DNA of 64,000 nt, from NCBI GenBank assembly GCA_964354085.1, contig CAYGYA010000049.1, positions 3,887-67,886 of the forward strand, written 5' to 3'. The notes under the pieces are model-generated. The model ran no database searches. It saw only the letters and a list, made by a program, of their open reading frames with translations, and was not told where the DNA came from. Source of the stretch: an uncultured Methanosarcinales archaeon (GTDB taxonomy: Archaea; Nanobdellota; Nanobdellia; Woesearchaeales; SM23-78). This document shows positions 8,268 through 21,977 of this stretch, piece after piece. The translations under genes were made by a program, and so were the position numbers. How positions within the stretch are numbered: the first letter of the stretch is position 1; every line of letters begins with the position of its first letter.

Positions 8268-8382
8268 CGCCTCCAGCCGGATTTGAACCGACGACCGCGC
8301 GGTTACTTTCCTTCTCTTACCCAGATATTTCTGAGCAAGGCGAAGCTAACAGCCGCGAGCTCCACCGCTAAGCTATGGAGGC
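8268..8382 (-). tRNA. tRNA-Asn (anticodon GUU) with a ~43-nt intron after position 37
   Basis: Hand fold. Acceptor GCCUCCA/UGGAGGC, D-stem GCUU/GAGC, anticodon stem CGCGG/CCGCG with loop CU-GUU-A, T-arm GUCGG-UUCAAAU-CCGGC, discriminator G. Confidence 0.5.
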
Positions 8383-10711: not shown

Positions 10712-11347
10712 ATGAGCAATTATCAAAGCAATGTTATTGAAGTGAACATCCAGTATGATGCTAACAAGGCTCCTGATTACAAGGCAATCCAAGAGAAGAT
10801 TGATGAGCACTTGAAAAAGCACTTTAAAGGGCAGAAAATTGTTGTTCATCCTATTAGTGGAGAAGAGCATCCTGATAGGAACATTGAGGATGTTCTGAAG
10901 CATCTTCTTGAGCATGGGACTGAAAAAGTTGAAGAAAATATCAAAGAGCAGCCAGGTAAAGAGAACGCATATGATTTCTTGGGCAATTATCACGAGATTC
11001 ATGATAAGTCTGACATAATGAGCGCATATGCCAAGGATAATAAGATGAATGTCGACCTTATTGCTGTTTACGACTCTGAACATGTTGAGAAAATACCTTA
11101 TTCTGACAAATCTAAAGGAATCGGCGATGCTTATAAGTTCAAGCACCCTGACAAGAAGTCATCAGCGCTCAAGGCAGTGCTCAAAATAGTGCCTGAAAAA
11201 AAAGCTGATGAAAAAGAATCAGGAGCAGAGCAAAAGACAGCAATGAAGCCAAAAGAAGGAGCAAACCCAGAGCAAGGAGAACCAACACAAGAAGAGCTTG
11301 AGCAGCTTGCAGCAGAACTTGGCTTAGATTATCAGGGAGCTAACTAA
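10712..11347 (+). CDS. hypothetical acidic protein
   Basis: 211-aa lysine/glutamate-rich ORF. No motif recognised. Confidence 0.4.
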   Translation: MSNYQSNVIEVNIQYDANKAPDYKAIQEKIDEHLKKHFKGQKIVVHPISGEEHPDRNIEDVLKHLLEHGTEKVEENIKEQPGKENAYDFLGNYHEIHDKSDIMSAYAKDNKMNVDLIAVYDSEHVEKIPYSDKSKGIGDAYKFKHPDKKSSALKAVLKIVPEKKADEKESGAEQKTAMKPKEGANPEQGEPTQEELEQLAAELGLDYQGAN

Positions 11348-11409: not shown

Positions 11410-12600
11410 ATGCTCTTCAAAAAGGATGAACTGAGATTGCTGTGGCCTTTTTATCTTTATTACCTGGTTTTTGGCTTGTCAATCATGATTATGCCTTTCT
11501 TGATTATATATTTCAGGGATTTGGGCTTTTCTTTTTTTCAGATTGCATTAATCACTTCTGCCTTTGGAATTGCCATGTTCTTGTTTGAGACTCCTACAGG
11601 AGCTTTTGCCGACAGCATCAGCAGGAAATACTCAGTTATCCTTGGTTTTGTACTAACAGGCATAGCTGTTTCCTTAATGCCCTTATTCACAAGTTTCTAT
11701 ACGCTGCTTATTCTCTGGGCAGTAGCTGGCATTGGCATGACTTTTGTAAGCGGAGCAGAAGAAGCATGGGTCATTGACAACCTTAACCATTATGAAAGAA
11801 AAGATTTGCACCACGAGTATTTCATTAAAAGCTCAAGTTTAACGGCTTTTGGCGCAGTATTTGCTCCGATTCTAGGAGCTATTATTGTTAAGAGCCACCC
11901 GATTAGTACCTTATGGTATGTTTTCGGATTTGGCTTCTTAGTGAATGCAATCGTCCTTTCTATCTTTGCAAAAGAATTGTACAGGCCGGAAAAAACTGGC
12001 TTTATCAAAACAATGAAGCAGACCTTTGACAACAGCAAGCAAGGTTTAAAATTCACTTTTACTCATAAGATTGTTTTTCTCCTCACTCTCGGAAGTATTT
12101 TTTCATTCCTGATGATTATAGGAGACACCGGGTGGCAACCTTTCCTTGTCAGCCTCTCAATGCCAAGATACGCTTTAGGAATTATGTGGTCTATTGGAGC
12201 AGCTATTATGATGATTACTCCTTTCCTATCAAAGCTATTTGTAAAGATGAAAGTCAAGAATGTTGTTGCTGTTACAACCTTAATCAGGATGCTGCTTCTC
12301 TTATCAGTATTATTCATTTACCCGCCTTTTTATTTAATCGCGGCAATCGTCTATGTTTTTGACGATGGACTAAGAGGTTTAAAGGATCCTTTGCTCCAAA
12401 CCTATTTTCATAAGTTTGTTCCTGAGAATATCAGGGCAACAGTTGTTTCTGTCGGCAGCATGCTAACAAGAATCACCATTGCTTTGGCAAGCTTGGCTGC
12501 TGGGGCTCTAATGGATGTTCTAGGACCACAAAAAATTATCGGGATAGGAAGCTTGTTTGGGATATTCGCCATCGCAACATACCTGAAAATAAAAGATTAG
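11410..12600 (+). CDS. MFS-type transporter
   Basis: About 12 predicted hydrophobic segments in 6+6 layout. An MFS-like loop (GAFADSISRKYSV) follows TM2. Confidence 0.65.
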   Translation: MLFKKDELRLLWPFYLYYLVFGLSIMIMPFLIIYFRDLGFSFFQIALITSAFGIAMFLFETPTGAFADSISRKYSVILGFVLTGIAVSLMPLFTSFYTLLILWAVAGIGMTFVSGAEEAWVIDNLNHYERKDLHHEYFIKSSSLTAFGAVFAPILGAIIVKSHPISTLWYVFGFGFLVNAIVLSIFAKELYRPEKTGFIKTMKQTFDNSKQGLKFTFTHKIVFLLTLGSIFSFLMIIGDTGWQPFLVSLSMPRYALGIMWSIGAAIMMITPFLSKLFVKMKVKNVVAVTTLIRMLLLLSVLFIYPPFYLIAAIVYVFDDGLRGLKDPLLQTYFHKFVPENIRATVVSVGSMLTRITIALASLAAGALMDVLGPQKIIGIGSLFGIFAIATYLKIKD

Positions 12601-13009
12601 CAAAAAAATTTCTGACAAGAAAATGCAAAACTTTTCTAACAACAACTAAAACCTTTAATCAGTTTTGCAAGAAAAATTTTCAATAATGATTTCTCGTATA
12701 TCTTTTCAATAGTGCAAATAACTTTTCAGAAAAGTTTTATAAAAAAAATATTTTTTCGAAAAATTTCAAAATGAAAATATTTAAATATAGGGCTTCACAT
12801 AATAATTATATAAAAAATATAATAGTCGAGAAAAAAAAAATCAAAAAAACTGCTGGAAATCTGGGTGATCGTGTAGACAACTACTACAACGGCAAACATG
12901 AACAATACTTCTAATATTTCTGATGAAAATGATGAAGAGCCTGGCGGCAAACTAGGAGCTTTTACGAGATTTTTCTATTCACAAGCACGAAGGAGGTTTG
13001 ATTTGTAAA

Positions 13010-15106
13010 ATGAACTTAAAAGAATTCTCTGAGAAATTCCCTGATGTCATAGATGAAGTAAAAAAAGTTAGGAAAACTTATCCTATGAAAATTTCTGAAT
13101 ACTATTTAGGGCTTATGAAGGAGAAGAATGACCCTATCTGGAAGCAGTGCATTCCTGACTTGAAAGAGCTTGAAGATAATGTTAATGAGGAAGACCCGTT
13201 ATTAGAGGAAGAGTACAGTCCTGTTCCTTGCCTTGTTCACAGGTATCCTGACAGAGTCCTATTATTGGCTAGCAACAAGTGCGCCATGTACTGCAGGTTC
13301 TGCACAAGAAAGAGAAAGGTTGGCAAGGAAGTAGTGATAAGCAAGGACATGATTGCTAATGCTATTGATTACATTTCAAAGCACAATGAAGTCAGGGATG
13401 TAATAATCTCAGGGGGAGACCCTTTAATGCTTGATGATGATTTCCTGGAATGGATTGTCAAGAGCATCAGGGAGATTCCTCATGTTGAGATTATCAGGAT
13501 TGGAACCAGGGTTCCCTGCACCATGCCAGCAAGGATTACTCCAGAGCTGGTTGATATGCTCAAGAAGTATCATCCTGTTTTTGTTAATGTTCATTTCGAG
13601 CACCCGATGGAGATTACTCCTGAAAGCAAGAAGGCTTGTGAGTTGTTGGTAGATGCAGGCATTCCAGTGGCAAACCAGGCAGTAATGCTCAAAGGAATTA
13701 ATGATGACCCAAAAGTTTTGAGGGAATTATTCCACAAACTCATAGCAATGAGAGTTAAGCCTTATTACTTGTACCAGGCAGACTGCGTCAAGGGAACAGA
13801 GCACTTCAGGACCAGCATTGAACAGGGGCTTGAAGTCATGAAGAGCCTTTATGGTTTTACTTCTGGCATGTGCGTTCCGCAGTTCATGGTTGATGTTCCT
13901 GGAGGAGGAAAGATTCCTCTGCTGCCAGAATACCTGAAGTACAGGAATGATGAAAGCATTGTGCTTGAGAATTTTGAAGGAAAGATTGTTGAGTACAAGA
14001 ACCCATTGACTGTTGAGGAAAAAAAGAAAGCAGCCAATGGAAAGATGAGGATTGCAGTTGCTTTCAACCTCAAGAAAGAAGCTCCTAATGATCAGCCGGT
14101 TGATGCTTTTGCAGATTTCGACGAGATAGATGTGCCATTAGCCATCAAGAAAGCCCTGGAAAAGAAAGGGCATATTGCAGAAATAGTTGAGGCTAATGAG
14201 GAGTTCTTTGAAAAGATAAAGAATGGCAATTATGATTTTGTGTTTAACATGGCAGAAGGATTGAACACAGGAGCAAGAGAGAGCCAGATACCAGCTATTC
14301 TTGACATGCTAGGAATTCCTTACACAGGCTCTGGAATCCTGACCCAGGCAATCACTCTTGACAAGACCAAAACCAAAGAAATATTGACCTATCACGGAGT
14401 TCCTACTCCAAGATACCAGCTTTTCAATCACTGGGATGAGAAGATAAGTTCTGACCTGGTGTTCCCATTGTTTGTCAAGCCAAATGCAGAAGGCTCTTCA
14501 AAGGGAATAAGGAATAATTCTCTTGTTAATAATGAGAAAGAGCTTAAGAAGATGGTGAAGTATGTCATCTCAACCTACAAGCAGCCCGCACTGGCTGAAG
14601 AATACCTTGATGGAAGAGAATTCACAGTTGGAGTGATTGGAAACAGCCCTCCAAGAGTGCTTCCTATTGTTGAGATAACTTTCGACTACCTGCCTGCTGG
14701 GATTAACAAATTTGATTCTTATGAGGTCAAGTGGTATTGGGACAACCCAAACAACCCTGTTGACCCTATTGTGTGCCCTGCAAAAGTTGATGATGAACTC
14801 AAGCAAAGGATTGAGGAAGTAGCCTTGAGAACTTACAAGGTGCTCGGCATTCTTGACTTGTGTAGGATGGACATGAGGCTGGACAAGGAAGGGATACCGC
14901 ACGTCATTGATGTTAATGCCTTGCCAGGCATGATGCCTAACCCAATTGATAACTCAAGATTCCCAAAAGCCTGCTATGCTGCAGGCATGAACTATGACAA
15001 GATAGTCAATACTGTGCTAAACGAGGCTATGAAGAGGTATGGCTTGCTGACAGAGACTAAGAGAGTGAAAAATGAGAGTAGGAATTCTGTACAACTTAGT
15101 CGATAA
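13010..15106 (+). CDS. fusion protein: KamA-family radical-SAM 2,3-aminomutase (N-terminal ~340 aa) + D-Ala-D-Ala-ligase-like ATP-grasp ligase (C-terminal ~350 aa)
   Basis: N-terminal half carries the KamA signature CAMYCRFCTRKR (CxxxCxxC) and the PLP-region IISGGDPL. The C-terminal half restarts with a Ddl-like N-domain (MRIAVAFNLKKE...) and an ATP-grasp core (FPLFVKPNAEGSSKGI, EEYLDGREFTVGVIGN, LCRMDMRLDKEGIPHVIDVNALPG). AGGAGG lies 14 nt upstream of the ATG. Confidence 0.8.
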   Translation: MNLKEFSEKFPDVIDEVKKVRKTYPMKISEYYLGLMKEKNDPIWKQCIPDLKELEDNVNEEDPLLEEEYSPVPCLVHRYPDRVLLLASNKCAMYCRFCTRKRKVGKEVVISKDMIANAIDYISKHNEVRDVIISGGDPLMLDDDFLEWIVKSIREIPHVEIIRIGTRVPCTMPARITPELVDMLKKYHPVFVNVHFEHPMEITPESKKACELLVDAGIPVANQAVMLKGINDDPKVLRELFHKLIAMRVKPYYLYQADCVKGTEHFRTSIEQGLEVMKSLYGFTSGMCVPQFMVDVPGGGKIPLLPEYLKYRNDESIVLENFEGKIVEYKNPLTVEEKKKAANGKMRIAVAFNLKKEAPNDQPVDAFADFDEIDVPLAIKKALEKKGHIAEIVEANEEFFEKIKNGNYDFVFNMAEGLNTGARESQIPAILDMLGIPYTGSGILTQAITLDKTKTKEILTYHGVPTPRYQLFNHWDEKISSDLVFPLFVKPNAEGSSKGIRNNSLVNNEKELKKMVKYVISTYKQPALAEEYLDGREFTVGVIGNSPPRVLPIVEITFDYLPAGINKFDSYEVKWYWDNPNNPVDPIVCPAKVDDELKQRIEEVALRTYKVLGILDLCRMDMRLDKEGIPHVIDVNALPGMMPNPIDNSRFPKACYAAGMNYDKIVNTVLNEAMKRYGLLTETKRVKNESRNSVQLSR

Positions 15107-16067
15107 AGTTGATCACGGCAAGGACCTTGACAAACTGGCAGACAACGAAGTTCTAGAAACATCTAAAGCTGTCAAAGCTGCTCTTGAAAAGAGAAGTCAT
15201 GCTGCTGTCCTTGAAAAGATTAACCCTGATGAATTGGAAAAATTAAAGCAAAAGTATGACCTGATTTTTAATCTTGCAGAAGGGATTGGAGGCGACCCAT
15301 TAAAGGAGCCTGAGATTGCTGCTGTTTTTGAAAAAGCAGGCTTGCCTTTCACAGGAGCAGGCTCAAAAGCACTTGCACTATGCCTTAACAAGGAAAAAGC
15401 CAAGGAAGTACTGATAAAAAATAATATACCAACGCCAAAATACCAGCTTATCAAGAAGCTGCCTGCAAAAAAAAATAAGGATTTGAAATACCCCTTGATT
15501 ATAAAGCCAGTGCATGAAGACGGAAGTATTGGCATAAACTCTGATTCTGTTGTTAATGATGATCCAAGCTTTGAAAAGAAAGTCAATGAGATACTTGAGG
15601 TTTACAAGCAGCCAGCCCTGGTTGAAGAATATATTGATGGGCGAGAAATTAACGTGGGGATTCTTGGCAATGGTAAGGGCATAGAAGCTCTTCCTCTCTC
15701 AGAGATAATATTTGATTTTCCAGAAGGAGTTCCTAAAATTGTTTCTTTTGAAGCCAAATGGATTGAAGAGTCAGCTCTGTGCAAGAAAAGCATAGGAAAA
15801 TGCCCTACAAATGTTCCAGAGCAAATAAGGAATAATATAGTTGAGCTTGCAAAAAAAGCATTCCTGGCAATGGGATGTGCAGACTATGGGCGAGTTGATT
15901 TCAGGCTCAGGGGAGAAGAATTGTTTGTCCTCGAAGTCAATCCAAATCCTTGCATCAACCCCGACGGAGCAGGGTTTATACGCTCTGCAAATGCAGCAGG
16001 CTACACCTATGATGACATCATCAACAAGATTGTTGAGCTTGCACTGAAGCGTTATTCTAATTCTTAG
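15072..16067 (+). CDS. D-Ala-D-Ala-ligase-like ATP-grasp ligase, paralog 2
   Basis: MRVGILYNL start, YPLIIKPVHEDGSIGI, EEYIDGREINVGILGN, GRVDFRLRGEELFVLEVNPNPC. Overlaps the upstream fusion gene by 35 nt. Confidence 0.75.
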   Translation: MRVGILYNLVDKVDHGKDLDKLADNEVLETSKAVKAALEKRSHAAVLEKINPDELEKLKQKYDLIFNLAEGIGGDPLKEPEIAAVFEKAGLPFTGAGSKALALCLNKEKAKEVLIKNNIPTPKYQLIKKLPAKKNKDLKYPLIIKPVHEDGSIGINSDSVVNDDPSFEKKVNEILEVYKQPALVEEYIDGREINVGILGNGKGIEALPLSEIIFDFPEGVPKIVSFEAKWIEESALCKKSIGKCPTNVPEQIRNNIVELAKKAFLAMGCADYGRVDFRLRGEELFVLEVNPNPCINPDGAGFIRSANAAGYTYDDIINKIVELALKRYSNS

Positions 16068-16229: not shown

Positions 16230-17255
16230 ATGAAAGTAGTTATTGTTTATTCAGACGGGGAAGTTGCATCGCATACATCTGCTGATTACAAGGGAAGAAC
16301 TGATGACGCTAACATACAGAACGTGAACGACGCTCTGATTAGCCTAGGCCACGAAGTAATCAGGGTGGTTGCTGACGAGACAATATTCCAGAAATTACTT
16401 GAGCTAAAGGACAGCACAGACATAGTCTTTAACCTTGCAGAGGAAGGATATAAGCAGGACATCCACACAGAGCCTCACATGGCTGCGCTGCTGGAGATGC
16501 TGGGCTTCAAGTTCACAGGCTCAAATTATTTATGCCTTGCAAACTGCCTTGACAAGGCAAGGGCAAAACAATTGTTTGTGGTGAATGGATTATCAACACC
16601 CAAGTTCATTATCTTCAACAAGGAAATAAATGCGGATGTAAAAATAAATGGATTAACCTTCCCGTTGATAGTCAAGCCTGGAAAGAGCGACGGCAGCGTA
16701 GGCATAAGGCGTAATTCTGTTGTTGAAGATGTAGAAAGCCTGGTATTAAGAGTGAATGAGGTTATCCAGACCTATGAACAACCAGCACTTGTGGAAGAAT
16801 TCATTGACGGCAGGGAGATAAATGTGGGAATATTCGGAAACAAAAGGCTCACAGTGCTTCCGATGTCTGAAATAATATTCAATCTTAAACCTGAAGAAAG
16901 AAATTTCCTGCCTTACGAGGCTAAATGGCTTACCAGGACCAAGTATTACAAAGGCACAACTCCGCAATGCCCAGCAGAAATAGAGCCTGGCCTGAAAGCA
17001 GAGATTGAAGAGCTTGCAAGAAAAGCTTACACTCTCATGGGAGTGAGAGGCTATGGAAGAGTTGATTTCAGGATTGACGCTAACAATAAGCCTTACATCC
17101 TAGAAGTAAATCCTAATCCTGATATATCTAGTGACGCAGGGCTTTCAAGGATGATAGCTGCCCACGGGATTACATATAAAGAACTAATAGAGAAGATTGT
17201 CAGGATGGGCATCAACAAGGACGAGCAGGAGTTCAGGATAATTATCTATGAATAA
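16230..17255 (+). CDS. D-Ala-D-Ala-ligase-like ATP-grasp ligase, paralog 3
   Basis: FPLIVKPGKSDGSVGI, EEFIDGREINVGIFGN, GRVDFRIDANNKPYILEVNPNPD. Clearly paralogous to the two upstream ATP-grasp units. Confidence 0.75.
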   Translation: MKVVIVYSDGEVASHTSADYKGRTDDANIQNVNDALISLGHEVIRVVADETIFQKLLELKDSTDIVFNLAEEGYKQDIHTEPHMAALLEMLGFKFTGSNYLCLANCLDKARAKQLFVVNGLSTPKFIIFNKEINADVKINGLTFPLIVKPGKSDGSVGIRRNSVVEDVESLVLRVNEVIQTYEQPALVEEFIDGREINVGIFGNKRLTVLPMSEIIFNLKPEERNFLPYEAKWLTRTKYYKGTTPQCPAEIEPGLKAEIEELARKAYTLMGVRGYGRVDFRIDANNKPYILEVNPNPDISSDAGLSRMIAAHGITYKELIEKIVRMGINKDEQEFRIIIYE

Positions 17256-17305: not shown

Positions 17306-18937
17306 TTGGTAATGCCTGTTAGAAAGAATCATTCCAACAAAAAATTTATTGTTGTCACAGGCGGTGTTCTCTCTGGCTTGGGAAAAGGAGTTGCTGCAGC
17401 TACAATTGGAAACCTGATAACAAAGGCAGGATTAAGAGTTATTCCTATTAAGTGCGACGGCTATCTTAATGTTGACCCCGGCACTATGAATCCTATTGAG
17501 CATGGCGAAGTATTTGTTCTTGATGATGGCGGAGAAGTTGACATGGACTTTGGCCATTATGAAAGATTTCTTGGCGTTACCTGCAAATTCAACTGGAATC
17601 TTACCATGGGCAAGGTTTATGAAGCAATAAGAACTAAGGAGAGGCGCGGTGATTATCTTGGAAAAACAGTCCAGCTCATACCCCATGTTACTGATTTGAT
17701 TAAGGATTGGTTCTACAAGGTTGCTGAGGATGAAAAAGCAGATGTTGTGATGATAGAAGTAGGAGGAACTGTCGGCGATATTGAGAATGAATTATATATT
17801 GAGGCTTGCAGAGAATTAAAAAGAGAAGTTGGCCATGAGAATATTCTTTATGTTCACCTGACTTATGTTCCTATTCCTACTAATGTGCATGAGCAAAAGA
17901 GCAAGCCAACTCAGCAATCAGTAATCCTGCTAAGAGAAAGAGGGATTGAGCCTGACATAATAATAGGCAGGTGCGCAGAATACCTTGATGAGAAGATAAA
18001 GAACAAGATAAGTGTTTTCTGCGATATAGAGCAAAAAGCAGTAATCACAGGCCTGGATGTTGACTGCGTCTACAAGATACCAGTTGTTTTCTCAGATGAA
18101 GGGATTAATTACATAATAAAGGAAAGATTGGGAATTGATTCTGGAGTCAAGCCCGAATGGAAGAAATTAGTTGATAACTTGTCAAAGCTTGACAAAGAAT
18201 TGAATATTGCAATATGTGGCAAGTATACTAAGCTCGAGGACTCATATGCTAGCATTCTCGAAGCCTTGAAGCACTGCAGCGCAAATCTGAAAGCAAAGAT
18301 TAATGTGAAAATGATAGAGACAACTGACGTGAACAATCAGGAAGATGCAAAAAAATTACTCAAGGGTATTGACGGAGTAATTGTTCCTGGAGGCTTTGGA
18401 AGCAGAGGAGTAGAAGGCAAGATAGAAGTGATACGTTATTGCAGAGAGAAAAACATTCCATTCCTAGGGCTTTGCTATGGACTCCAGCTTGCAACAGTTG
18501 AGTTTGCTCGTAATGTTTGCGGATTAAAAGATGCAAACACAACTGAAGTTGATGAGAAAACCAAATATCCTGTGATTGACATAATGCCTGAGCAGAAGAA
18601 CATAGAGAACAAGGGCGGGACAATGAGACTTGGAGCTTATCCTGCTGTCATGAAAGAAAAAACAATTATCTGGGAGCTCTATGGCAAGCAAAAAGAAGTT
18701 AGTGAAAGGCACAGGCACAGGTATGAAGTAAATCCTGAATACCACGAGATACTGCAAAAGCATGGATTAATATTCTCAGGCATGAGCCCTGACAAAAGAT
18801 TAGTTGAATTCATTGAATTGCCAAAGGAAAAGCACAAATACTTTGTAGGAACACAAGCACATCCAGAGCTAAAGAGCAAATTAGAAAAGCCAGGGCCACT
18901 ATTCTATGGACTGGTTAAGGCTTGCTTGGAGAAATAG
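17306..18937 (+). CDS. pyrG: CTP synthase
   Basis: FIVVTGGVLSGLGKG P-loop, synthetase-domain motifs, and a C-terminal glutamine amidotransferase with LGLCYGLQL (catalytic Cys) and HRHRYEVN. Confidence 0.9.
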   Translation: MVMPVRKNHSNKKFIVVTGGVLSGLGKGVAAATIGNLITKAGLRVIPIKCDGYLNVDPGTMNPIEHGEVFVLDDGGEVDMDFGHYERFLGVTCKFNWNLTMGKVYEAIRTKERRGDYLGKTVQLIPHVTDLIKDWFYKVAEDEKADVVMIEVGGTVGDIENELYIEACRELKREVGHENILYVHLTYVPIPTNVHEQKSKPTQQSVILLRERGIEPDIIIGRCAEYLDEKIKNKISVFCDIEQKAVITGLDVDCVYKIPVVFSDEGINYIIKERLGIDSGVKPEWKKLVDNLSKLDKELNIAICGKYTKLEDSYASILEALKHCSANLKAKINVKMIETTDVNNQEDAKKLLKGIDGVIVPGGFGSRGVEGKIEVIRYCREKNIPFLGLCYGLQLATVEFARNVCGLKDANTTEVDEKTKYPVIDIMPEQKNIENKGGTMRLGAYPAVMKEKTIIWELYGKQKEVSERHRHRYEVNPEYHEILQKHGLIFSGMSPDKRLVEFIELPKEKHKYFVGTQAHPELKSKLEKPGPLFYGLVKACLEK

Positions 18938-19084: not shown

Positions 19085-19738
19085 TTGAAAAACATAAATA
19101 TTGAAAATCAAAGGAGTGGAGAATCTCGAGCATATGCTTCTCTAGAAGGGGATGTTAGGAACCTTATTAAAGCATTCATGAAGTCAGATGACAAAAGTTT
19201 AGTAATCCCTTACACTGGAAAAAGGCTTTCTGCAATAAATGAGTGGAAGAGAATGAGGTTCAACCCAAAGCTTTTTTTTAACTGTATTGTTACCGAGATG
19301 CTTAAAAAATTGCCTCCTTCTAACTTCAAGAATTCATGTTACAGGCTGCTAGGGTTTAAGATAGGTCGTGACGTAGCAATATGCAATGACGTTCATATTG
19401 ATCCTTTTTTCCCGGAACTGACAATTATCGGCGATGGTGTCCTTTTGGGATACAAATCCACAATTAATGTTCATGACTATGTTATGAGAGATCTGAAAGT
19501 CGGGAGGGTTGTAATCAATAGCGGCTCTCTAATAGGAGGCAGGTCGCTGGTGAACTGCGGGGTGACTATAGGCAAGAACTGCGTTGTGGCAATCAACAGC
19601 GTTGTTGATCATGACATACCTGATAATACTGTAGTGGGAGGAAATCCCTTGAAAAAGCTTATAACTCTTCAGGAAGGAGAGATTTTCCGTTTCAAAAAGG
19701 CATACATCGGTAAAGATGGGCTTGAGCACGAGTATTGA
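19085..19738 (+). CDS. hexapeptide-repeat (left-handed beta-helix) acyl/acetyltransferase
   Basis: Repeated [LIV]G..... hexads: IGDGVLLGYKSTINVHD, VINSGSLIGGRSLVNCGVTIGKNCVVAINSVV, VVGGNPLKKL. The listed ORF starts at TTG; an ATG 31 codons in is an alternative start. Confidence 0.6.
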   Translation: MKNINIENQRSGESRAYASLEGDVRNLIKAFMKSDDKSLVIPYTGKRLSAINEWKRMRFNPKLFFNCIVTEMLKKLPPSNFKNSCYRLLGFKIGRDVAICNDVHIDPFFPELTIIGDGVLLGYKSTINVHDYVMRDLKVGRVVINSGSLIGGRSLVNCGVTIGKNCVVAINSVVDHDIPDNTVVGGNPLKKLITLQEGEIFRFKKAYIGKDGLEHEY

Positions 19739-19766
19739 AACGAAAATTTGGCTGTTTAAGGAAAAT

Positions 19767-20126
19767 ATGTATATCGGGACTGATTGTGAGGATATTGAAA
19801 GGTTTGAAAACCTTGAAAAGCAGTTTATTTCTAAAGTGTTTTCAAGGAAAGAAACTGATTATTGCCTGTCCACACAAAAGCCTGCTGAGCATTTTGCTGT
19901 AAGGTTTGCTGCAAAAGAAGCAGTAATAAAAGCATTTATGCAGGCAGGCTGTAGCATAGGATTGGATTTGTGTGACATAGAAATCCTTAAAGACCGTGCG
20001 GGAGTTCCTTTTGCCAAGCTGCATGCTGATAAGCAAGATAAATTAAACAGCTACACCATAAGGGTTAGCATGTCGCATTCAAAAAATATGGCTTTGGCTT
20101 TTGCAATAGTTTTTCAGAAAAATTAA
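19767..20126 (+). CDS. acpS: holo-ACP synthase-type 4'-phosphopantetheinyl transferase
   Basis: YIGTDCEDIERFE is the AcpS GxDxxE Mg site. FSRKETDYC, FAAKEAVIKA, LDLCDIEILKD...GVPF and the C-terminal VSMSHSKNMALAFAIV match the AcpS fold signature. ~119 aa from the internal Met. Confidence 0.65.
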   Translation: MYIGTDCEDIERFENLEKQFISKVFSRKETDYCLSTQKPAEHFAVRFAAKEAVIKAFMQAGCSIGLDLCDIEILKDRAGVPFAKLHADKQDKLNSYTIRVSMSHSKNMALAFAIVFQKN

Positions 20127-20153
20127 TAAACCGCAACGCCAGTTAAGGTTTTC

Positions 20154-21977
20154 ATGAGTGATTTTTTTGAAGAAAAGTCCTTGCTTGACAAGCTTACCTT
20201 TGAGTCTCCCATCTATGATTATATTTCTGCTTATTCAAAATTGCATTCCCTGGACCTATCGCCGCTCAAGCTGAAAAAGCTAAGAATCGCTTTTGTCTGC
20301 AGTTTCACTATTTCAAACATTGAAAAAGTTTTTTTCACTCTCTGCATAAAAAACAACATCATGCCTGAGTTTTACTTCTCGGATTATAACCAGTATACCC
20401 AGGACATCTTAGACGAAAAGAGCAAGCTATACTCTTTTCACCCCGATATTACTTTTCTGTTTATTGATTCAAGAGCCCTGCTTGCGGAATCATATTTTGT
20501 TCCTTATCCTTCCTCTGAAGAAAGCATGAAAAAAAATGCTGAGGAAATTACCAATTATCTTATTAATTTGGTTGACAAGCTTCAAAAATTTTGCCCCAAA
20601 ACAGTTGTTCATAACCTGGAAATACCTTTCTATTCACCCCTGGGAATTGCGGAAAACAAGGAGGCTTTCGGGTTTTTGGATATTTTTTCATCAGTAAACA
20701 ATGCTTTAAGAAAAAAGTATGAGGAAAACAGCTCTGTTTTTGTTTTTGATTTTGACCAGTTCCTGTCTAAAATAGGCAAAGAAAATGCATTTGATTACAA
20801 GATGTATTATTTAGGTGACATGAAGATTGCCATGCAAATCTTTCCAAAACTGGTAAACGAATACCTGGCATATCTTATTCCTACAGCCTCCTTTACAAGA
20901 AGGTGCATTGTCCTTGACCTGGATAACACTCTTTGGGGAGGAAATGTGGGAGATGATGGGTTTAATGGAATTCAGCTTGGCCCAAAGCCTCCTGGGAACC
21001 AGTTCATGGATTTCCAAAAACATCTCCTGGCCCTGCACAATAGGGGCATTCTCCTGGCTATCAACAGCAGCAACAACTATGAGGAAGCAATGAATGTGAT
21101 TGAGAAACACCAGTTCATGGTATTAAAGAAAAAAAATTTCTCATCGATTAAGATAAACTGGGAGCCAAAAGATGAGAATATGAAGAATATCGCTAAGGAG
21201 ATTAACATAGGACTTGATTCCTTTGTTTTCATAGATGACCTAGCAGAGAACAGGGAAAGAATCAAGGAGCTGCTTCCTGAAGTTGAGACGATAGATATGC
21301 CTGAAGATCCTGCCCTTTATACAAAAACGCTTCTTGACCTAAAATTGTTTTCATCATTTGCAATTACTGAGGAAGACTTCTGCAGGGGCGAACTGTATGC
21401 CCAGCGAAGCCAGCGTGACAGTTTAAGACTATCATCTAACAGTATGGAGAAATTCTTAGAGAATCTGGGATTGTCAGTCAATATTGCACAGGCAGACTTG
21501 CCTTCAATTCCAAGGATTTCCCAGCTATGCATGAAAACCAACCAATTCAACGTCACCACAAGAAGATATTCTGAATCAGACATCAAAGCATTTTATGAAA
21601 ACAATAATTGCGTAGTATACCAATTGGATGCAACTGACCGCTTTGGCGACCATGGGCTGGTAGGAGTTTGTATCATAAAAAAAGAGGGTGACAAGGCGTT
21701 CATTGACAGCTTTTTGCTGAGTTGCAGAGTTATGGGATTTCATATAGAAAATGCTTTTTATAATTATGTTGCAGATGACCTAAAGAAGCAGGGTATTACA
21801 AGCATATCTTCTCTCTACATCCCTACTACAAAAAATTCTCCTGTAAAGGATTTGTACGCCTCGTTTGGTTTTAGCAAGGCAAAGGAAAATGATGATGGTT
21901 CAGTTCAATGGGATAAAAGCCTACAGGATTTCACACCTGAGTATCCCAAATGGATTTTAATGGAGATAAAAAAATGA
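20154..21977 (+). CDS. FkbH-like protein (HAD-IIIC phosphatase domain + C-terminal acyl/GNAT-like domain); predicted glyceryl-S-carrier-protein loading enzyme
   Basis: The FkbH/HAD-IIIC signature CIVLDLDNTLWGGNVGDDGFNGIQLG is an exact match to the family core. LAINSSNN and FIDDLAENRE complete the HAD motifs. 607 aa is typical of FkbH proteins. Confidence 0.7.
   Translation: MSDFFEEKSLLDKLTFESPIYDYISAYSKLHSLDLSPLKLKKLRIAFVCSFTISNIEKVFFTLCIKNNIMPEFYFSDYNQYTQDILDEKSKLYSFHPDITFLFIDSRALLAESYFVPYPSSEESMKKNAEEITNYLINLVDKLQKFCPKTVVHNLEIPFYSPLGIAENKEAFGFLDIFSSVNNALRKKYEENSSVFVFDFDQFLSKIGKENAFDYKMYYLGDMKIAMQIFPKLVNEYLAYLIPTASFTRRCIVLDLDNTLWGGNVGDDGFNGIQLGPKPPGNQFMDFQKHLLALHNRGILLAINSSNNYEEAMNVIEKHQFMVLKKKNFSSIKINWEPKDENMKNIAKEINIGLDSFVFIDDLAENRERIKELLPEVETIDMPEDPALYTKTLLDLKLFSSFAITEEDFCRGELYAQRSQRDSLRLSSNSMEKFLENLGLSVNIAQADLPSIPRISQLCMKTNQFNVTTRRYSESDIKAFYENNNCVVYQLDATDRFGDHGLVGVCIIKKEGDKAFIDSFLLSCRVMGFHIENAFYNYVADDLKKQGITSISSLYIPTTKNSPVKDLYASFGFSKAKENDDGSVQWDKSLQDFTPEYPKWILMEIKK

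What the first reader, a model, noticed from the sequence alone, without database searches (positions are those of the whole stretch)
13010..15106. In-frame fusion of KamA-family aminomutase with a D-Ala-D-Ala-ligase-like ATP-grasp
The reading frame runs without a stop from the radical-SAM CxxxCxxC aminomutase core into a second module that itself begins like a stand-alone Ddl (MRIAVAFN...). Fusion implies channelling of the beta-amino acid product straight into ATP-dependent ligation. I know of no described aminomutase-ligase fusion. It would differ from the methanogen AblA/AblB (acetyl-beta-lysine) route and from the bacterial EpmB/EpmA route.
Basis: seen in the sequence. Interest (0 to 1): 0.75.

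Follow-up and report, generated by a model that had tools for sequence, protein, structure and literature searches.

The report
Lysine aminomutase fused to amide ligase
A real, evolutionarily old gene fusion joins an enzyme that makes beta-lysine to an ATP-driven amide-bond-forming enzyme; it is one layout of a four-enzyme gene cassette found across many bacterial and archaeal phyla, and no product for that cassette is named in the annotation libraries or papers I could search.

Summary
One uninterrupted ORF (13010-15106, +, 698 aa from the ATG) encodes a KamA-type radical-SAM/PLP aminomutase, a 10-residue Lys-rich linker, then a complete Ddl-like ATP-grasp ligase. It is not a frameshift artefact: 115 of the best 120 database homologues carry both modules, and independent assemblies keep the frame with different junction nucleotides.

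The aminomutase keeps the Fe-S cysteines, the PLP lysine and both lysine-binding aspartates. All are invariant in 114 two-module homologues, so beta-lysine is the likely product, not beta-glutamate. It lacks the zinc cysteines, as do its unfused relatives.

The ligase keeps the ATP/Mg/catalytic residues but not the D-Ala-specific ones, and it scores below the Ddl cut-offs.

The fusion is one layout of a conserved cassette: KamA, ligase "grasp1", ligase "grasp2" and usually a GNAT acetyltransferase. The cassette is split in most bacteria sampled, fused in either order elsewhere, and grasp2 is often fused to the GNAT. This window has the fusion plus two grasp2 paralogues and no GNAT.

The most likely function is synthesis of a beta-lysine-containing peptide or amide; the product is unknown. 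I found no description in the literature I could search. Physical channelling is not shown. Interest 0.6.

The parts
13010..15106 (+). Gene for the 698-aa bifunctional protein (KamA-type aminomutase + grasp1 ATP-grasp ligase), stop codon included
   Evidence: AlphaFold2 model: mean pLDDT 89.4, two confident domains.
13010..14014 (+). Aminomutase module (residues 1-335): short-form lysine 2,3-aminomutase without the zinc/oligomerisation C-terminus
   Evidence: 50% identity to C. subterminale LAM 2A5H over residues 17-334, E 1e-111. Foldseek E 7e-38. TIGR00238 KamA subfamily: 310 bits against a cut-off of 199.
13280..13303 (+). CxxxCxxC motif (Cys91, Cys95, Cys98 = LAM Cys125/129/132), the ligands of the radical-SAM [4Fe-4S] cluster
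   Evidence: Invariant in 114/114 two-module homologues.
13910..13912 (+). Codon of Lys301 (= LAM Lys337, the PLP Schiff-base lysine). Nearby are Asp258 (= Asp293) and Asp295 (= Asp330); Arg100 (= Arg134) lies in the Fe-S region.
   Evidence: All invariant in 114/114. The residue roles are from my memory of Lepore et al. 2005.
14015..14044 (+). Linker (residues 336-345, EEKKKAANGK): short, basic, variable in sequence
   Evidence: Alignment of 114 homologues. pLDDT 60-75 across residues 331-350.
14045..15052 (+). grasp1 ligase module (residues 346-681): Ddl-like ATP-grasp with all three subdomains. Residues 682-698 (15053-15103) form a disordered tail.
   Evidence: Foldseek TM 0.84-0.86 to Ddl chains. 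Catalytic residues mapped.
15072..16067 (+). grasp2 paralogue A (331 aa), a stand-alone Ddl-like ligase. Its start overlaps the fusion gene's 3' end by 35 nt.
   Evidence: Falls in the grasp2 clade with L001 and L010. The same 35-nt overlap is present in L091.
16230..17255 (+). grasp2 paralogue B (341 aa), a second stand-alone Ddl-like ligase
   Evidence: Falls in the grasp2 clade with the Methanocellales gene L003_g2. Conserved in L091 and L092.
12601..13009 (+). AT-rich intergenic region upstream of the cassette; presumed promoter/leader with a GGAGG ribosome-binding site at 12992-12996
   Evidence: Sequence read. Function not tested. The small ORFs here are not conserved in relatives.

Best explanation
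The ORF encodes a genuine bifunctional enzyme.

Aminomutase module. The N-terminal module is a short-form radical-SAM/PLP lysine 2,3-aminomutase that converts L-lysine to beta-lysine. This is inferred from the conserved residues and 50% identity to a solved LAM.

Ligase module. The C-terminal module (grasp1) is a D-Ala-D-Ala-ligase-like ATP-grasp enzyme. It would activate a carboxylate as an acyl phosphate and join it to an amine. Its substrate is most likely beta-lysine, probably as the acyl donor, joined to a second amino acid. This is inferred from obligate gene linkage and from fusion in both orders.

Downstream ligases. The two downstream grasp2-type ligases (15072-16067 and 16230-17255) would add further amide bonds.

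Capping step. In most other lineages a GNAT acetyltransferase, often fused to grasp2, caps an amine. This window has no GNAT but has a duplicated grasp2.

Product. The end product would be a small beta-lysine-containing peptide or amide. My best guess is a cytoplasmic solute, by analogy with N-epsilon-acetyl-beta-lysine and with N-acetylglutaminylglutamine amide (NAGGN). The product and its role are not established.

What the fusion does. It guarantees 1:1 stoichiometry and proximity of the two activities. True substrate channelling is possible but not required, because most bacterial relatives sampled run the same chemistry with separate proteins.
For: Shown:
- The ORF is continuous and its domains are clear.
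- 115 of the 120 best hits carry both modules, at 39-98% identity. They come from Woesearchaeota, Nanoarchaeota, Thermoplasmatota, Methanocellales, Spirochaetales and Omnitrophica.
- The frame is kept with different junction nucleotides in independent assemblies.
- LAM residues C125, C129, C132, R134, D293, D330 and K337 are invariant in 114/114 two-module homologues.
- Both ligase clades keep K97, K144, E180, E187, K215, R255, D257, E270 and N272 of E. coli DdlB.
- Both domains are modelled confidently and match LAM and Ddl folds.
- Reverse-order fusions (ligase then aminomutase) exist.
- Of 80 GTDB loci, 46 carry the split cassette, in the order kamA-grasp1-grasp2-GNAT or grasp1-grasp2-GNAT-kamA. 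They come from more than ten bacterial groups plus one Asgard MAG.
- grasp1 forms its own clade, always paired with KamA. Fused forms sit in at least three separate places in the tree.
- Minimal loci hold only KamA and grasp1: L005, L011, L017, L033.
- grasp2~GNAT fusions are common.

Analogies:
- Ngg performs both N-acetylation and peptide-bond formation in NAGGN synthesis (PMC8070244).
- The negamycin cluster combines beta-lysine formation with an ATP-grasp enzyme (bioRxiv 10.1101/2025.05.27.656397).
Against: - No biochemical data exist for any member.
- The AblA equivalog cut-off is not reached (458 bits against 525), so lysine specificity rests on two aspartates and 50% identity to LAM.
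- The zinc site of the clostridial LAM is absent.
- Which substrate grasp1 takes, and whether beta-lysine is the donor or the acceptor, is pure inference.
- The cultured Asgard archaeon Promethearchaeum syntrophicum has grasp1 and grasp2~GNAT with no KamA within 8 kb. A search for its KamA was inconclusive.
- Carriers come from groundwater, peat, rumen and lakes (record titles), which does not point to salt adaptation.
- No transporter or regulator is conserved next to the cassette.
- Interdomain geometry is uncertain (pTM 0.65), so channelling cannot be judged.
Confidence: 0.7

Rival explanations
1. Assembly or sequencing artefact: two adjacent translationally coupled genes (kamA ending ...TGA, overlapping the ATG of a ligase gene) were merged by a 1-nt error in the A7 homopolymer at 14023-14029.
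For: A -1 shift in the A7 run would give a stop (TGA) overlapping the Met346 ATG, the classic ATGA junction. In many bacteria the two genes are in fact separate and adjacent.
Against: Independent assemblies at 92, 80 and 65% aa identity are in frame with different nucleotides at this spot. 115 of 120 top hits carry both modules, and in most of them the ligase module does not begin with Met.
Confidence: 0.02
2. The two modules are coupled, but the amino acid is not lysine. The aminomutase would make beta-glutamate or beta-arginine, and the ligases would build a peptide from that.
For: The glutamate 2,3-aminomutase model scores nearly as high as AblA (431 against 458 bits), and neither reaches its cut-off. 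The arginine model scores 343 bits.
Against: Asp293 and Asp330, which hold the lysine epsilon-ammonium in LAM, are invariant in 114/114. From memory of Ruzicka & Frey 2007, glutamate 2,3-aminomutase has Lys and Asn at these positions; I could not check this in the held library. Identity to the lysine enzyme 2A5H is 50%. A basic substrate other than lysine (ornithine, arginine) is not excluded.
Confidence: 0.1
3. The product is not a small solute but a polymer, oligomer or bioactive compound. Examples would be an epsilon-linked oligo-beta-lysine polycation, a cyanophycin-like reserve, or an antibiotic-type beta-lysine amide as in negamycin or streptothricin.
For: - This window carries three ligases and no capping enzyme.
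- Reverse-fusion loci L007 and L094 pair the enzyme with a weakly cyanophycinase-like S51 peptidase and a weakly F390-synthetase/PaaK-like adenylate-forming enzyme.
- The negamycin pathway unites KamA and an ATP-grasp enzyme.
- Carrier habitats are not saline.
Against: - Ddl-family ligases usually make one defined bond.
- The cassette is small, self-contained, and lacks conserved export or immunity genes.
- It occurs in tiny DPANN genomes, where an antibiotic pathway would be unusual.
- The S51 and adenylating-enzyme hits are far below their cut-offs.
Confidence: 0.2
4. The system modifies a protein or a ribosomal peptide, for example an EF-P/aIF5A-type beta-lysylation or a RiPP, rather than making a free metabolite.
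For: - EpmB, a KamA relative, supplies beta-lysine for EF-P modification (established knowledge).
- Some ATP-grasp enzymes (RimK, LysX, graspetide ligases) act on proteins or peptides.
- Small ORFs lie upstream of some loci, including an extremely acidic 26-aa ORF in L001.
- In Promethearchaeum the ligase genes sit next to deoxyhypusine synthase.
Against: - The EpmB model is well below its cut-off (250 against 369 bits).
- No EpmA-like gene and no conserved small ORF accompany the cassette.
- The ligases are Ddl-like rather than RimK/LysX-like, and score weakly or not at all on those models.
- The aminomutase keeps Arg134, which binds a free alpha-carboxylate.
Confidence: 0.07
5. The ATP-grasp genes are ordinary D-Ala-D-Ala ligases for a murein or pseudomurein-like wall, and the link to KamA is incidental.
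For: Best family and structure matches are Ddl. JGI labels many homologues 'D-alanine-D-alanine ligase'.
Against: - All Ddl models are below their cut-offs (190 against 243; 155 against 246).
- The archaeal pseudomurein ATP-grasp model scores 58 against 500 on grasp2A.
- Tyr216 is Trp, Leu282 is Arg or Gly, and Ser150 is Gly in grasp2.
- The genes are tied to KamA by fusion in both orders.
- Carriers include Thermoplasmatota.
Confidence: 0.03

Closest known systems
Lysine 2,3-aminomutase KamA/AblA (Clostridium subterminale LAM, PDB 2A5H; methanogen AblA)
   Same: Same fold. 50% identity over 320 residues. Same CxxxCxxC, PLP lysine, Arg134, Asp293 and Asp330.
   Different: It stops at about LAM residue 370 and lacks Cys268 and the C-terminal Cys triad that bind zinc. 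It scores below the AblA equivalog cut-off. It is covalently joined to a ligase.
AblA/AblB pathway for the osmolyte N-epsilon-acetyl-beta-lysine
   Same: An aminomutase makes beta-lysine, and a GNAT in the same operon (in most relatives of this cassette) modifies an amine.
   Different: Here two or three ATP-grasp ligases are added. The cassette GNATs do not match the AblB model and are of two unrelated GNAT types. This window has no GNAT at all.
D-alanine--D-alanine ligase (Ddl; E. coli DdlB, PDB 2DLN)
   Same: Same three-subdomain ATP-grasp fold (TM 0.84). Same ATP, Mg and catalytic residues.
   Different: The D-Ala-specific residues are changed (Y216W, L282R/G, S150G in grasp2). It scores below all curated Ddl cut-offs. 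Its genomic partner is KamA rather than the neighbours expected of a wall-synthesis Ddl.
Ngg/AsnO pathway for the dipeptide osmolyte N-acetylglutaminylglutamine amide
   Same: A cytoplasmic, non-ribosomal route in which one protein both N-acetylates an amino acid and forms a peptide bond (PMC8070244). This matches the common grasp2~GNAT fusion of the cassette.
   Different: Homology between Ngg and grasp2~GNAT was not tested. No aminomutase and no beta-amino acid is involved in NAGGN. No glutamine-amidotransferase partner is conserved here.
Negamycin biosynthesis (Kitasatospora purpeofusca neg cluster)
   Same: A KamA-type aminomutase that supplies beta-lysine sits in one cluster with an ATP-grasp superfamily enzyme, a family that usually forms amide bonds.
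   Different: The proteins are separate. It is an actinomycete secondary-metabolite cluster with hydroxylase, N-N-bond and methylation enzymes, none of which occur here.
EpmB/EpmA beta-lysylation of EF-P
   Same: A short-form KamA-family enzyme (from memory, E. coli EpmB is 342 aa and lacks the long LAM C-terminus) makes beta-lysine for an ATP-dependent ligation.
   Different: The ligase there is a lysyl-tRNA-synthetase paralogue acting on a protein, not an ATP-grasp enzyme. The EpmB model is not met (250 against 369 bits).

Membership tests
KamA family radical-SAM/PLP aminomutases (NCBIfam TIGR00238) | Score at or above the curated subfamily cut-off | tested here: met
   310.2 bits against a cut-off of 199.2.
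KamA family radical-SAM/PLP aminomutases (NCBIfam TIGR00238) | CxxxCxxC cluster motif and the PLP-binding lysine (LAM Lys337) | tested here: met
   Cys91/95/98 and Lys301 align to Cys125/129/132 and Lys337 of 2A5H. Invariant in 114/114 two-module homologues.
Lysine 2,3-aminomutase proper (AblA/KamA, TIGR03820) | Equivalog cut-off | tested here: not met
   457.9 bits against 525.4. The unfused cassette KamAs also fall short, at 457 and 469 bits.
Lysine 2,3-aminomutase proper (AblA/KamA, TIGR03820) | Lysine-binding residues Arg134, Asp293, Asp330 | tested here: met
   Arg100, Asp258 and Asp295 are invariant in 114/114. Residue roles are from memory of Lepore et al. 2005.
Lysine 2,3-aminomutase proper (AblA/KamA, TIGR03820) | Structural zinc site (Cys268 plus the C-terminal Cys375/377/380) | tested here: not met
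   Cys268 is Asp233. Across homologues this position is D/S/N, with Cys in only 5 of 114. The C-terminal region is replaced by the linker. Unfused relatives lack it too.
Lysine 2,3-aminomutase proper (AblA/KamA, TIGR03820) | Catalytic conversion of L-lysine to beta-lysine | not testable with these tools
   Needs an anaerobic enzyme assay.
Glutamate 2,3-aminomutase (TIGR04368) | Equivalog cut-off, and Lys/Asn in place of Asp293/Asp330 | tested here: not met
   430.9 bits against 650. Both positions are Asp. The Lys/Asn signature is from memory.
D-alanine--D-alanine ligase (TIGR01205 / NF002378) | Curated cut-offs | tested here: not met
   Fused module: 190 against 243 and 154.6 against 245.65. 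Both stand-alone ligases are also below the cut-offs.
D-alanine--D-alanine ligase (TIGR01205 / NF002378) | ATP-grasp fold with ATP/Mg/catalytic residues (DdlB K97, K144, E180, E187, K215, R255, D257, E270, N272) | tested here: met
   All are present (E270 is Asp in the window protein). Foldseek TM 0.84-0.86 to Ddl chains.
D-alanine--D-alanine ligase (TIGR01205 / NF002378) | D-Ala-site residues (the Glu15-Ser150-Tyr216 triad; Ser281/Leu282) | tested here: not met
   grasp1: Y216W and L282R, with S150 and S281 kept. grasp2 paralogues: S150G, Y216W, S281A, L282G, G276C/D.
AblA/AblB N-epsilon-acetyl-beta-lysine system | An adjacent AblB-type GNAT | tested here: not met
   tblastn with the cassette GNATs of related loci finds nothing in the 64-kb window; other GNAT types were not searched for. 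GNATs of related cassettes give no AblB hit at E <= 0.001.
EpmB/EpmA EF-P beta-lysylation | EpmB equivalog cut-off and an EpmA partner | tested here: not met
   250.1 bits against 369.3. No recurrent neighbour other than ligases and GNAT in 57 loci.
Ngg-type bifunctional GNAT/ATP-grasp osmolyte synthetase | Sequence homology to Ngg | not tested
   Only a functional analogy is drawn. No Ngg sequence was compared.

The most novel reading that the evidence does not exclude
The KamA + grasp1 + grasp2 (+ GNAT) cassette, of which this fusion is the archaeal layout, makes a previously unknown beta-lysine-containing peptide metabolite. It might be an N-capped di- or tripeptide solute, or a short oligo-beta-lysine. 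The cassette is widespread in anaerobic bacteria and in DPANN, Asgard, Thermoplasmatota and Methanocellales archaea. The fused enzyme would hand radical-SAM-made beta-lysine directly to an ATP-grasp active site.
Probability: 0.5. Interest if true: 0.75.

Novelty: new variant of a known kind. Interest (0 to 1): 0.6.

Why it matters
Beta-lysine is known in only a few roles: the methanogen osmolyte N-epsilon-acetyl-beta-lysine, EF-P modification, lysine fermentation and a few actinomycete antibiotics. This locus points to a further route in which beta-lysine is built into peptide or amide bonds by ATP-grasp ligases.

The route is not a curiosity of one genome. The same four enzyme types travel together across more than ten bacterial and archaeal groups. 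These include cultured species (Prolixibacter denitrificans DSM 27267; a partial set in Promethearchaeum syntrophicum) and very small DPANN genomes.

Fusion in both orders gives an unusually clean genomic argument that the two chemistries are coupled.

The hypothesis is directly testable, by enzyme assays and by metabolite profiling of cultured carriers. Such work could reveal a new widespread small molecule and a new substrate class for Ddl-like ligases.

It also shows that 'D-alanine--D-alanine ligase' labels in archaeal and candidate-phylum genomes should not be read as evidence of a murein-type wall.

Tried and rejected
1. Frameshift artefact at the A7 run. Rejected: relatives keep the frame with different nucleotides.

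2. A conserved small ORF or precursor peptide upstream. The window has a 36-aa ORF at 12898-13008, and L001 has a very acidic 26-aa ORF. Nothing is conserved between loci, so I dropped it.

3. The upstream MFS transporter (11410-12600) as part of the system. It is not conserved even in relatives at 92% and 80% identity or in 57 loci. Rejected.

4. PyrG as a functional partner. It follows the cassette here and in Acidobacteriota L028. In the window lineage it is simply syntenic, with variable insertions, and it scores as a full CTP synthase. Treated as coincidence.

5. The cassette GNAT as AblB. No AblB hit.

6. Literature. Successful searches found no description of the fusion or the cassette; two others failed on syntax. 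Attempts to open Iyer et al. 2009, Ruzicka & Frey 2007 and Lepore et al. 2005 failed because they are not held. The residue roles therefore rest on memory.

7. Whether Promethearchaeum has a KamA elsewhere. The search seeded with an Asgard KamA was inconclusive.

8. The afdb50 fold library was unavailable.

9. ARAGORN found no tRNA, although Rfam found one.

It therefore says nothing about how common the fused form is in archaeal species genomes.
Full report
**1. The observation**

The ORF listing shows a single ORF at 12998..15106 on the + strand.
- From the ATG at 13010 it encodes 698 aa. The 702-aa figure counts from a TTG that lies 1 nt after the GGAGG at 12992-12996, so the ATG is the better start. 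Close homologues are 696-698 aa.
- Pfam finds Radical_SAM (residues 88-234), LAM_C (278-344) and Dala_Dala_lig_C (474-670).
- NCBIfam aligns KamA-family models over residues 3-344, and Ddl models over 378-675, almost end to end.
- The junction reads ...NPLTVEEKKKAANGK-MRIAVAFNLKKE..., with the Met at 14045.

**2. Not an artefact**

The junction holds an A7 run. A -1 slip would create a TGA overlapping the ATG, which is what two coupled genes would look like. Three results exclude an error.
- Of the best 120 hits among 5.8 billion clustered proteins, 115 carry both modules. They range from 39 to 98% identity and come from many independent samples and taxa: Woesearchaeota, Nanoarchaeota, Thermoplasmatota, Methanocellales, Spirochaetales and Omnitrophica.
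- Relatives at 92, 80 and 65% aa identity keep the frame with different junction nucleotides; L091, for example, has GAGGAGAAAAAG.
- In an alignment of 114 two-module homologues the linker is short (about 10-13 residues), basic and variable. The residue at the ligase start is usually Leu, Phe, Ile or Val, not Met.

The fusion is therefore old and under selection.

**3. The aminomutase module**

It is 50% identical to the solved Clostridium subterminale lysine 2,3-aminomutase (2A5H, E 1e-111). The AlphaFold2 model matches that structure (Foldseek E 7e-38).

Mapping by the HMMER alignment:
- Cys125/129/132 correspond to Cys91/95/98.
- Arg134 corresponds to Arg100.
- Asp293 corresponds to Asp258.
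- Asp330 corresponds to Asp295.
- Lys337 (PLP) corresponds to Lys301.

All seven are invariant in 114/114 homologues. The roles of these residues come from my memory of Lepore et al. 2005. Every remembered number landed on the expected residue type, which is an internal check.

Two acidic residues at 293 and 330 argue for a basic side chain, meaning lysine. From memory, glutamate 2,3-aminomutase has Lys and Asn there.

Curated cut-offs:
- The KamA subfamily cut-off is passed (310 against 199).
- AblA (458 against 525), glutamate (431 against 650), arginine (343 against 600) and EpmB (250 against 369) are not passed.

The zinc ligands are missing. Cys268 is Asp233, and the region that would hold Cys375/377/380 is replaced by the linker. 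This is not a by-product of fusion: unfused KamAs of the same cassette also end early or carry K/R-rich tails. A minority of about 870-aa fusions keep a longer LAM C-terminus. I read this as a short-form, catalytically intact subfamily.

**4. The ligase module**

The model is confident (mean pLDDT 89.4). The linker (residues 331-350) is at pLDDT 60-75 and the last 17 residues are below 50. The pTM of 0.65 says the relative orientation of the domains is uncertain.

The C-terminal domain superposes on Ddl structures with TM 0.84-0.86 at 24-28% identity. No solved chain covers both halves.

I aligned 108 ligase domains to E. coli DdlB.
- K97, K144, E180, E187, K215, R255, D257, E270 and N272 are conserved.
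- Tyr216 is Trp and Leu282 is Arg.
- All Ddl models are below their cut-offs.

It is an active-looking ATP-grasp amide ligase, but not a D-Ala-D-Ala ligase.

**5. Context: a conserved cassette**

Directly downstream lie two more Ddl-like genes. One is at 15072-16067 and overlaps the fusion's 3' end by 35 nt. The other is at 16230-17255.

I fetched neighbourhoods of homologues and ran one scan of 185,579 species genomes. I then classified ORFs by BLAST. The recurrent set is KamA, ligase grasp1, ligase grasp2 and a GNAT of about 160 aa. The layouts are:
- (A) kamA-grasp1-grasp2-GNAT, in Bacteroidales, Rikenellaceae, Prolixibacter denitrificans DSM 27267, Smithella and other Deltaproteobacteria, and Planctomycetes.
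- (B) grasp1-grasp2-GNAT-kamA, in Ignavibacteria, Melioribacter, Aminicenantes, Desulfuromonas, Verrucomicrobiota and Acidobacteriota.
- (C) KamA~grasp1 fused, followed by grasp2 and a GNAT or by a grasp2~GNAT fusion, in archaea and some bacteria.
- (D) The reverse fusion grasp1~KamA.

Other findings on the cassette:
- Minimal loci hold only KamA and grasp1 (L005, L011, L017, Asgard L033).
- Beyond these genes nothing is conserved in 57 loci.
- An NJ tree puts every grasp1 in one clade. Fused forms appear in at least three separate places in the tree, so fusion happened repeatedly.
- Both downstream genes of this window are grasp2-type. They carry S150G, G276C/D and L282G.
- tblastn with the cassette GNATs of related loci finds nothing anywhere in the 64-kb window.
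- Close Woesearchaeota relatives share the fusion + grasp2 + grasp2 layout.
- grasp2~GNAT fusions of 505-553 aa are frequent in archaea.

**6. Mechanism**

Shown: both modules have intact catalytic apparatus, and the two gene families are linked by fusion in both orders and by operon conservation across more than ten bacterial and archaeal groups.

Inferred:
- Lysine is converted to beta-lysine.
- grasp1 uses beta-lysine. It keeps an acidic residue near the Ddl Glu15 position and keeps Ser150 and Ser281. This would fit an amino-acid acyl donor with a free ammonium and an amino-acid acceptor with a carboxylate.
- grasp2 has lost the conserved acid and has Asp or Cys at 276 and Asp at 280. This would fit an N-blocked or larger donor and a cationic acceptor, in line with its frequent fusion to a GNAT.
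- That last arrangement recalls Ngg, which both N-acetylates and ligates glutamine in making the osmolyte NAGGN (PMC8070244).

I therefore propose a small N-capped beta-lysine peptide. A solute role is my first guess, but only weakly.

Hints in favour of a solute role:
- In one Woesearchaeota locus (L001) ion-transport genes precede the cassette: MscL, Na/H and Na/Ca exchangers, and CorA.
- An EgtD-like N-methyltransferase is inserted after the cassette in L092.

Against it, carrier habitats are mostly non-saline.

Physical channelling is unproven and cannot be essential, because layouts A and B use separate proteins.

**7. Rivals**

- An artefact is excluded (section 2).
- A true Ddl or wall-synthesis role is excluded by the cut-offs, the changed residues and the partners.
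- Another amino acid remains possible at low probability.
- Protein or peptide modification is unlikely. There is no EpmA, no conserved peptide, the ligases are Ddl-like rather than RimK-like, and Arg134 is retained.
- A polymeric or bioactive product is a serious alternative:
  - This window has three ligases and no cap.
  - Two reverse-fusion loci add a weakly cyanophycinase-like S51 peptidase and a weakly F390-synthetase/PaaK-like adenylating enzyme.
  - The negamycin cluster unites beta-lysine formation with an ATP-grasp enzyme.

**8. An open problem**

The cultured Asgard archaeon Promethearchaeum syntrophicum has a stand-alone grasp1 (52% identical to the window module) next to grasp2~GNAT. 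It has no KamA within 8 kb. A search for its KamA was inconclusive.

**9. Novelty and score**

The proteins are abundant in public data under generic names: 'KamA family radical SAM protein', 'lysine 2,3-aminomutase', 'KamA family protein/D-alanine--D-alanine ligase', 'ATP-grasp domain-containing protein'. No NCBIfam equivalog covers any component. Full-text searches found no paper on the fusion or the cassette; subscription-only literature was not searchable.

The enzyme families and the chemistry are known. The combination, its breadth and its product are not. I rate it a new variant of a known kind, with interest 0.6.

Noticed in passing
window 8268-8382 (-): A 115-nt tRNA match in Rfam (49 bits) that ARAGORN did not report. 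The extra length suggests an intron-containing archaeal tRNA. This fits the archaeal origin of the window.
   Followed up: partly
window 19085-21977 (+): Three tightly packed genes right after pyrG: a hexapeptide-repeat acyltransferase, a 4'-phosphopantetheinyl transferase (ACPS) and a 607-aa FkbH-like protein. This is a carrier-protein-type biosynthetic trio, which is unexpected in a small DPANN-like genome. No link to the ligase cassette was tested.
   Followed up: no
window 10712-11347 (+): A 211-aa acidic protein with no Pfam hit lies between cysS and the MFS gene. A similar-sized unannotated gene (209 aa) sits at the same place in relative L091.
   Followed up: no
window 17306-18937 (+); L028 10558-12207: CTP synthase (pyrG) directly follows the cassette in this archaeal window and also in an Acidobacteriota MAG. 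In the window lineage this looks like plain synteny with variable insertions. I treated the bacterial case as coincidence.
   Followed up: partly
L092 13439-14371 (+): In a Woesearchaeota relative (80% identity) an EgtD-like amino-group N-methyltransferase is inserted between the last ligase gene and pyrG (Methyltransf_33; 95 bits against the EgtD model, cut-off 291). It could be an alternative amine-capping enzyme where the GNAT is missing.
   Followed up: partly
L095 (Promethearchaeum syntrophicum CP042905.2, 1,843,322-1,860,887): This cultured Asgard archaeon has a stand-alone grasp1 and a grasp2~GNAT fusion side by side, with no KamA within 8 kb. On the opposite strand nearby are deoxyhypusine synthase and a pyruvoyl-dependent arginine decarboxylase.
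   Followed up: partly
L007 1024-5196; L094 3912-8193: Reverse-order fusions (ligase then aminomutase) are twice flanked by a ~433-aa weakly F390-synthetase/PaaK-like adenylate-forming protein and a weakly cyanophycinase-like S51 peptidase, in place of grasp2 and the GNAT. This may be a second variant of the pathway.
   Followed up: partly
L001 7620-7703 (+): About 300 nt upstream of the Woesearchaeota fusion gene lies a 26-codon ORF encoding an extremely acidic peptide (MAYEEEYEEYEDEEEYDSGDDDDEDDW). It is not conserved in the window or in other loci and may be a chance product of AT-rich sequence.
   Followed up: partly
L005 8001-10109: An archaeal-type forward fusion (51% identity to the window protein) sits alone in a contig assigned to Spirochaetales, among an AraC regulator and a dockerin-bearing cellulase. 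This suggests horizontal transfer between domains, or a binning error.
   Followed up: no
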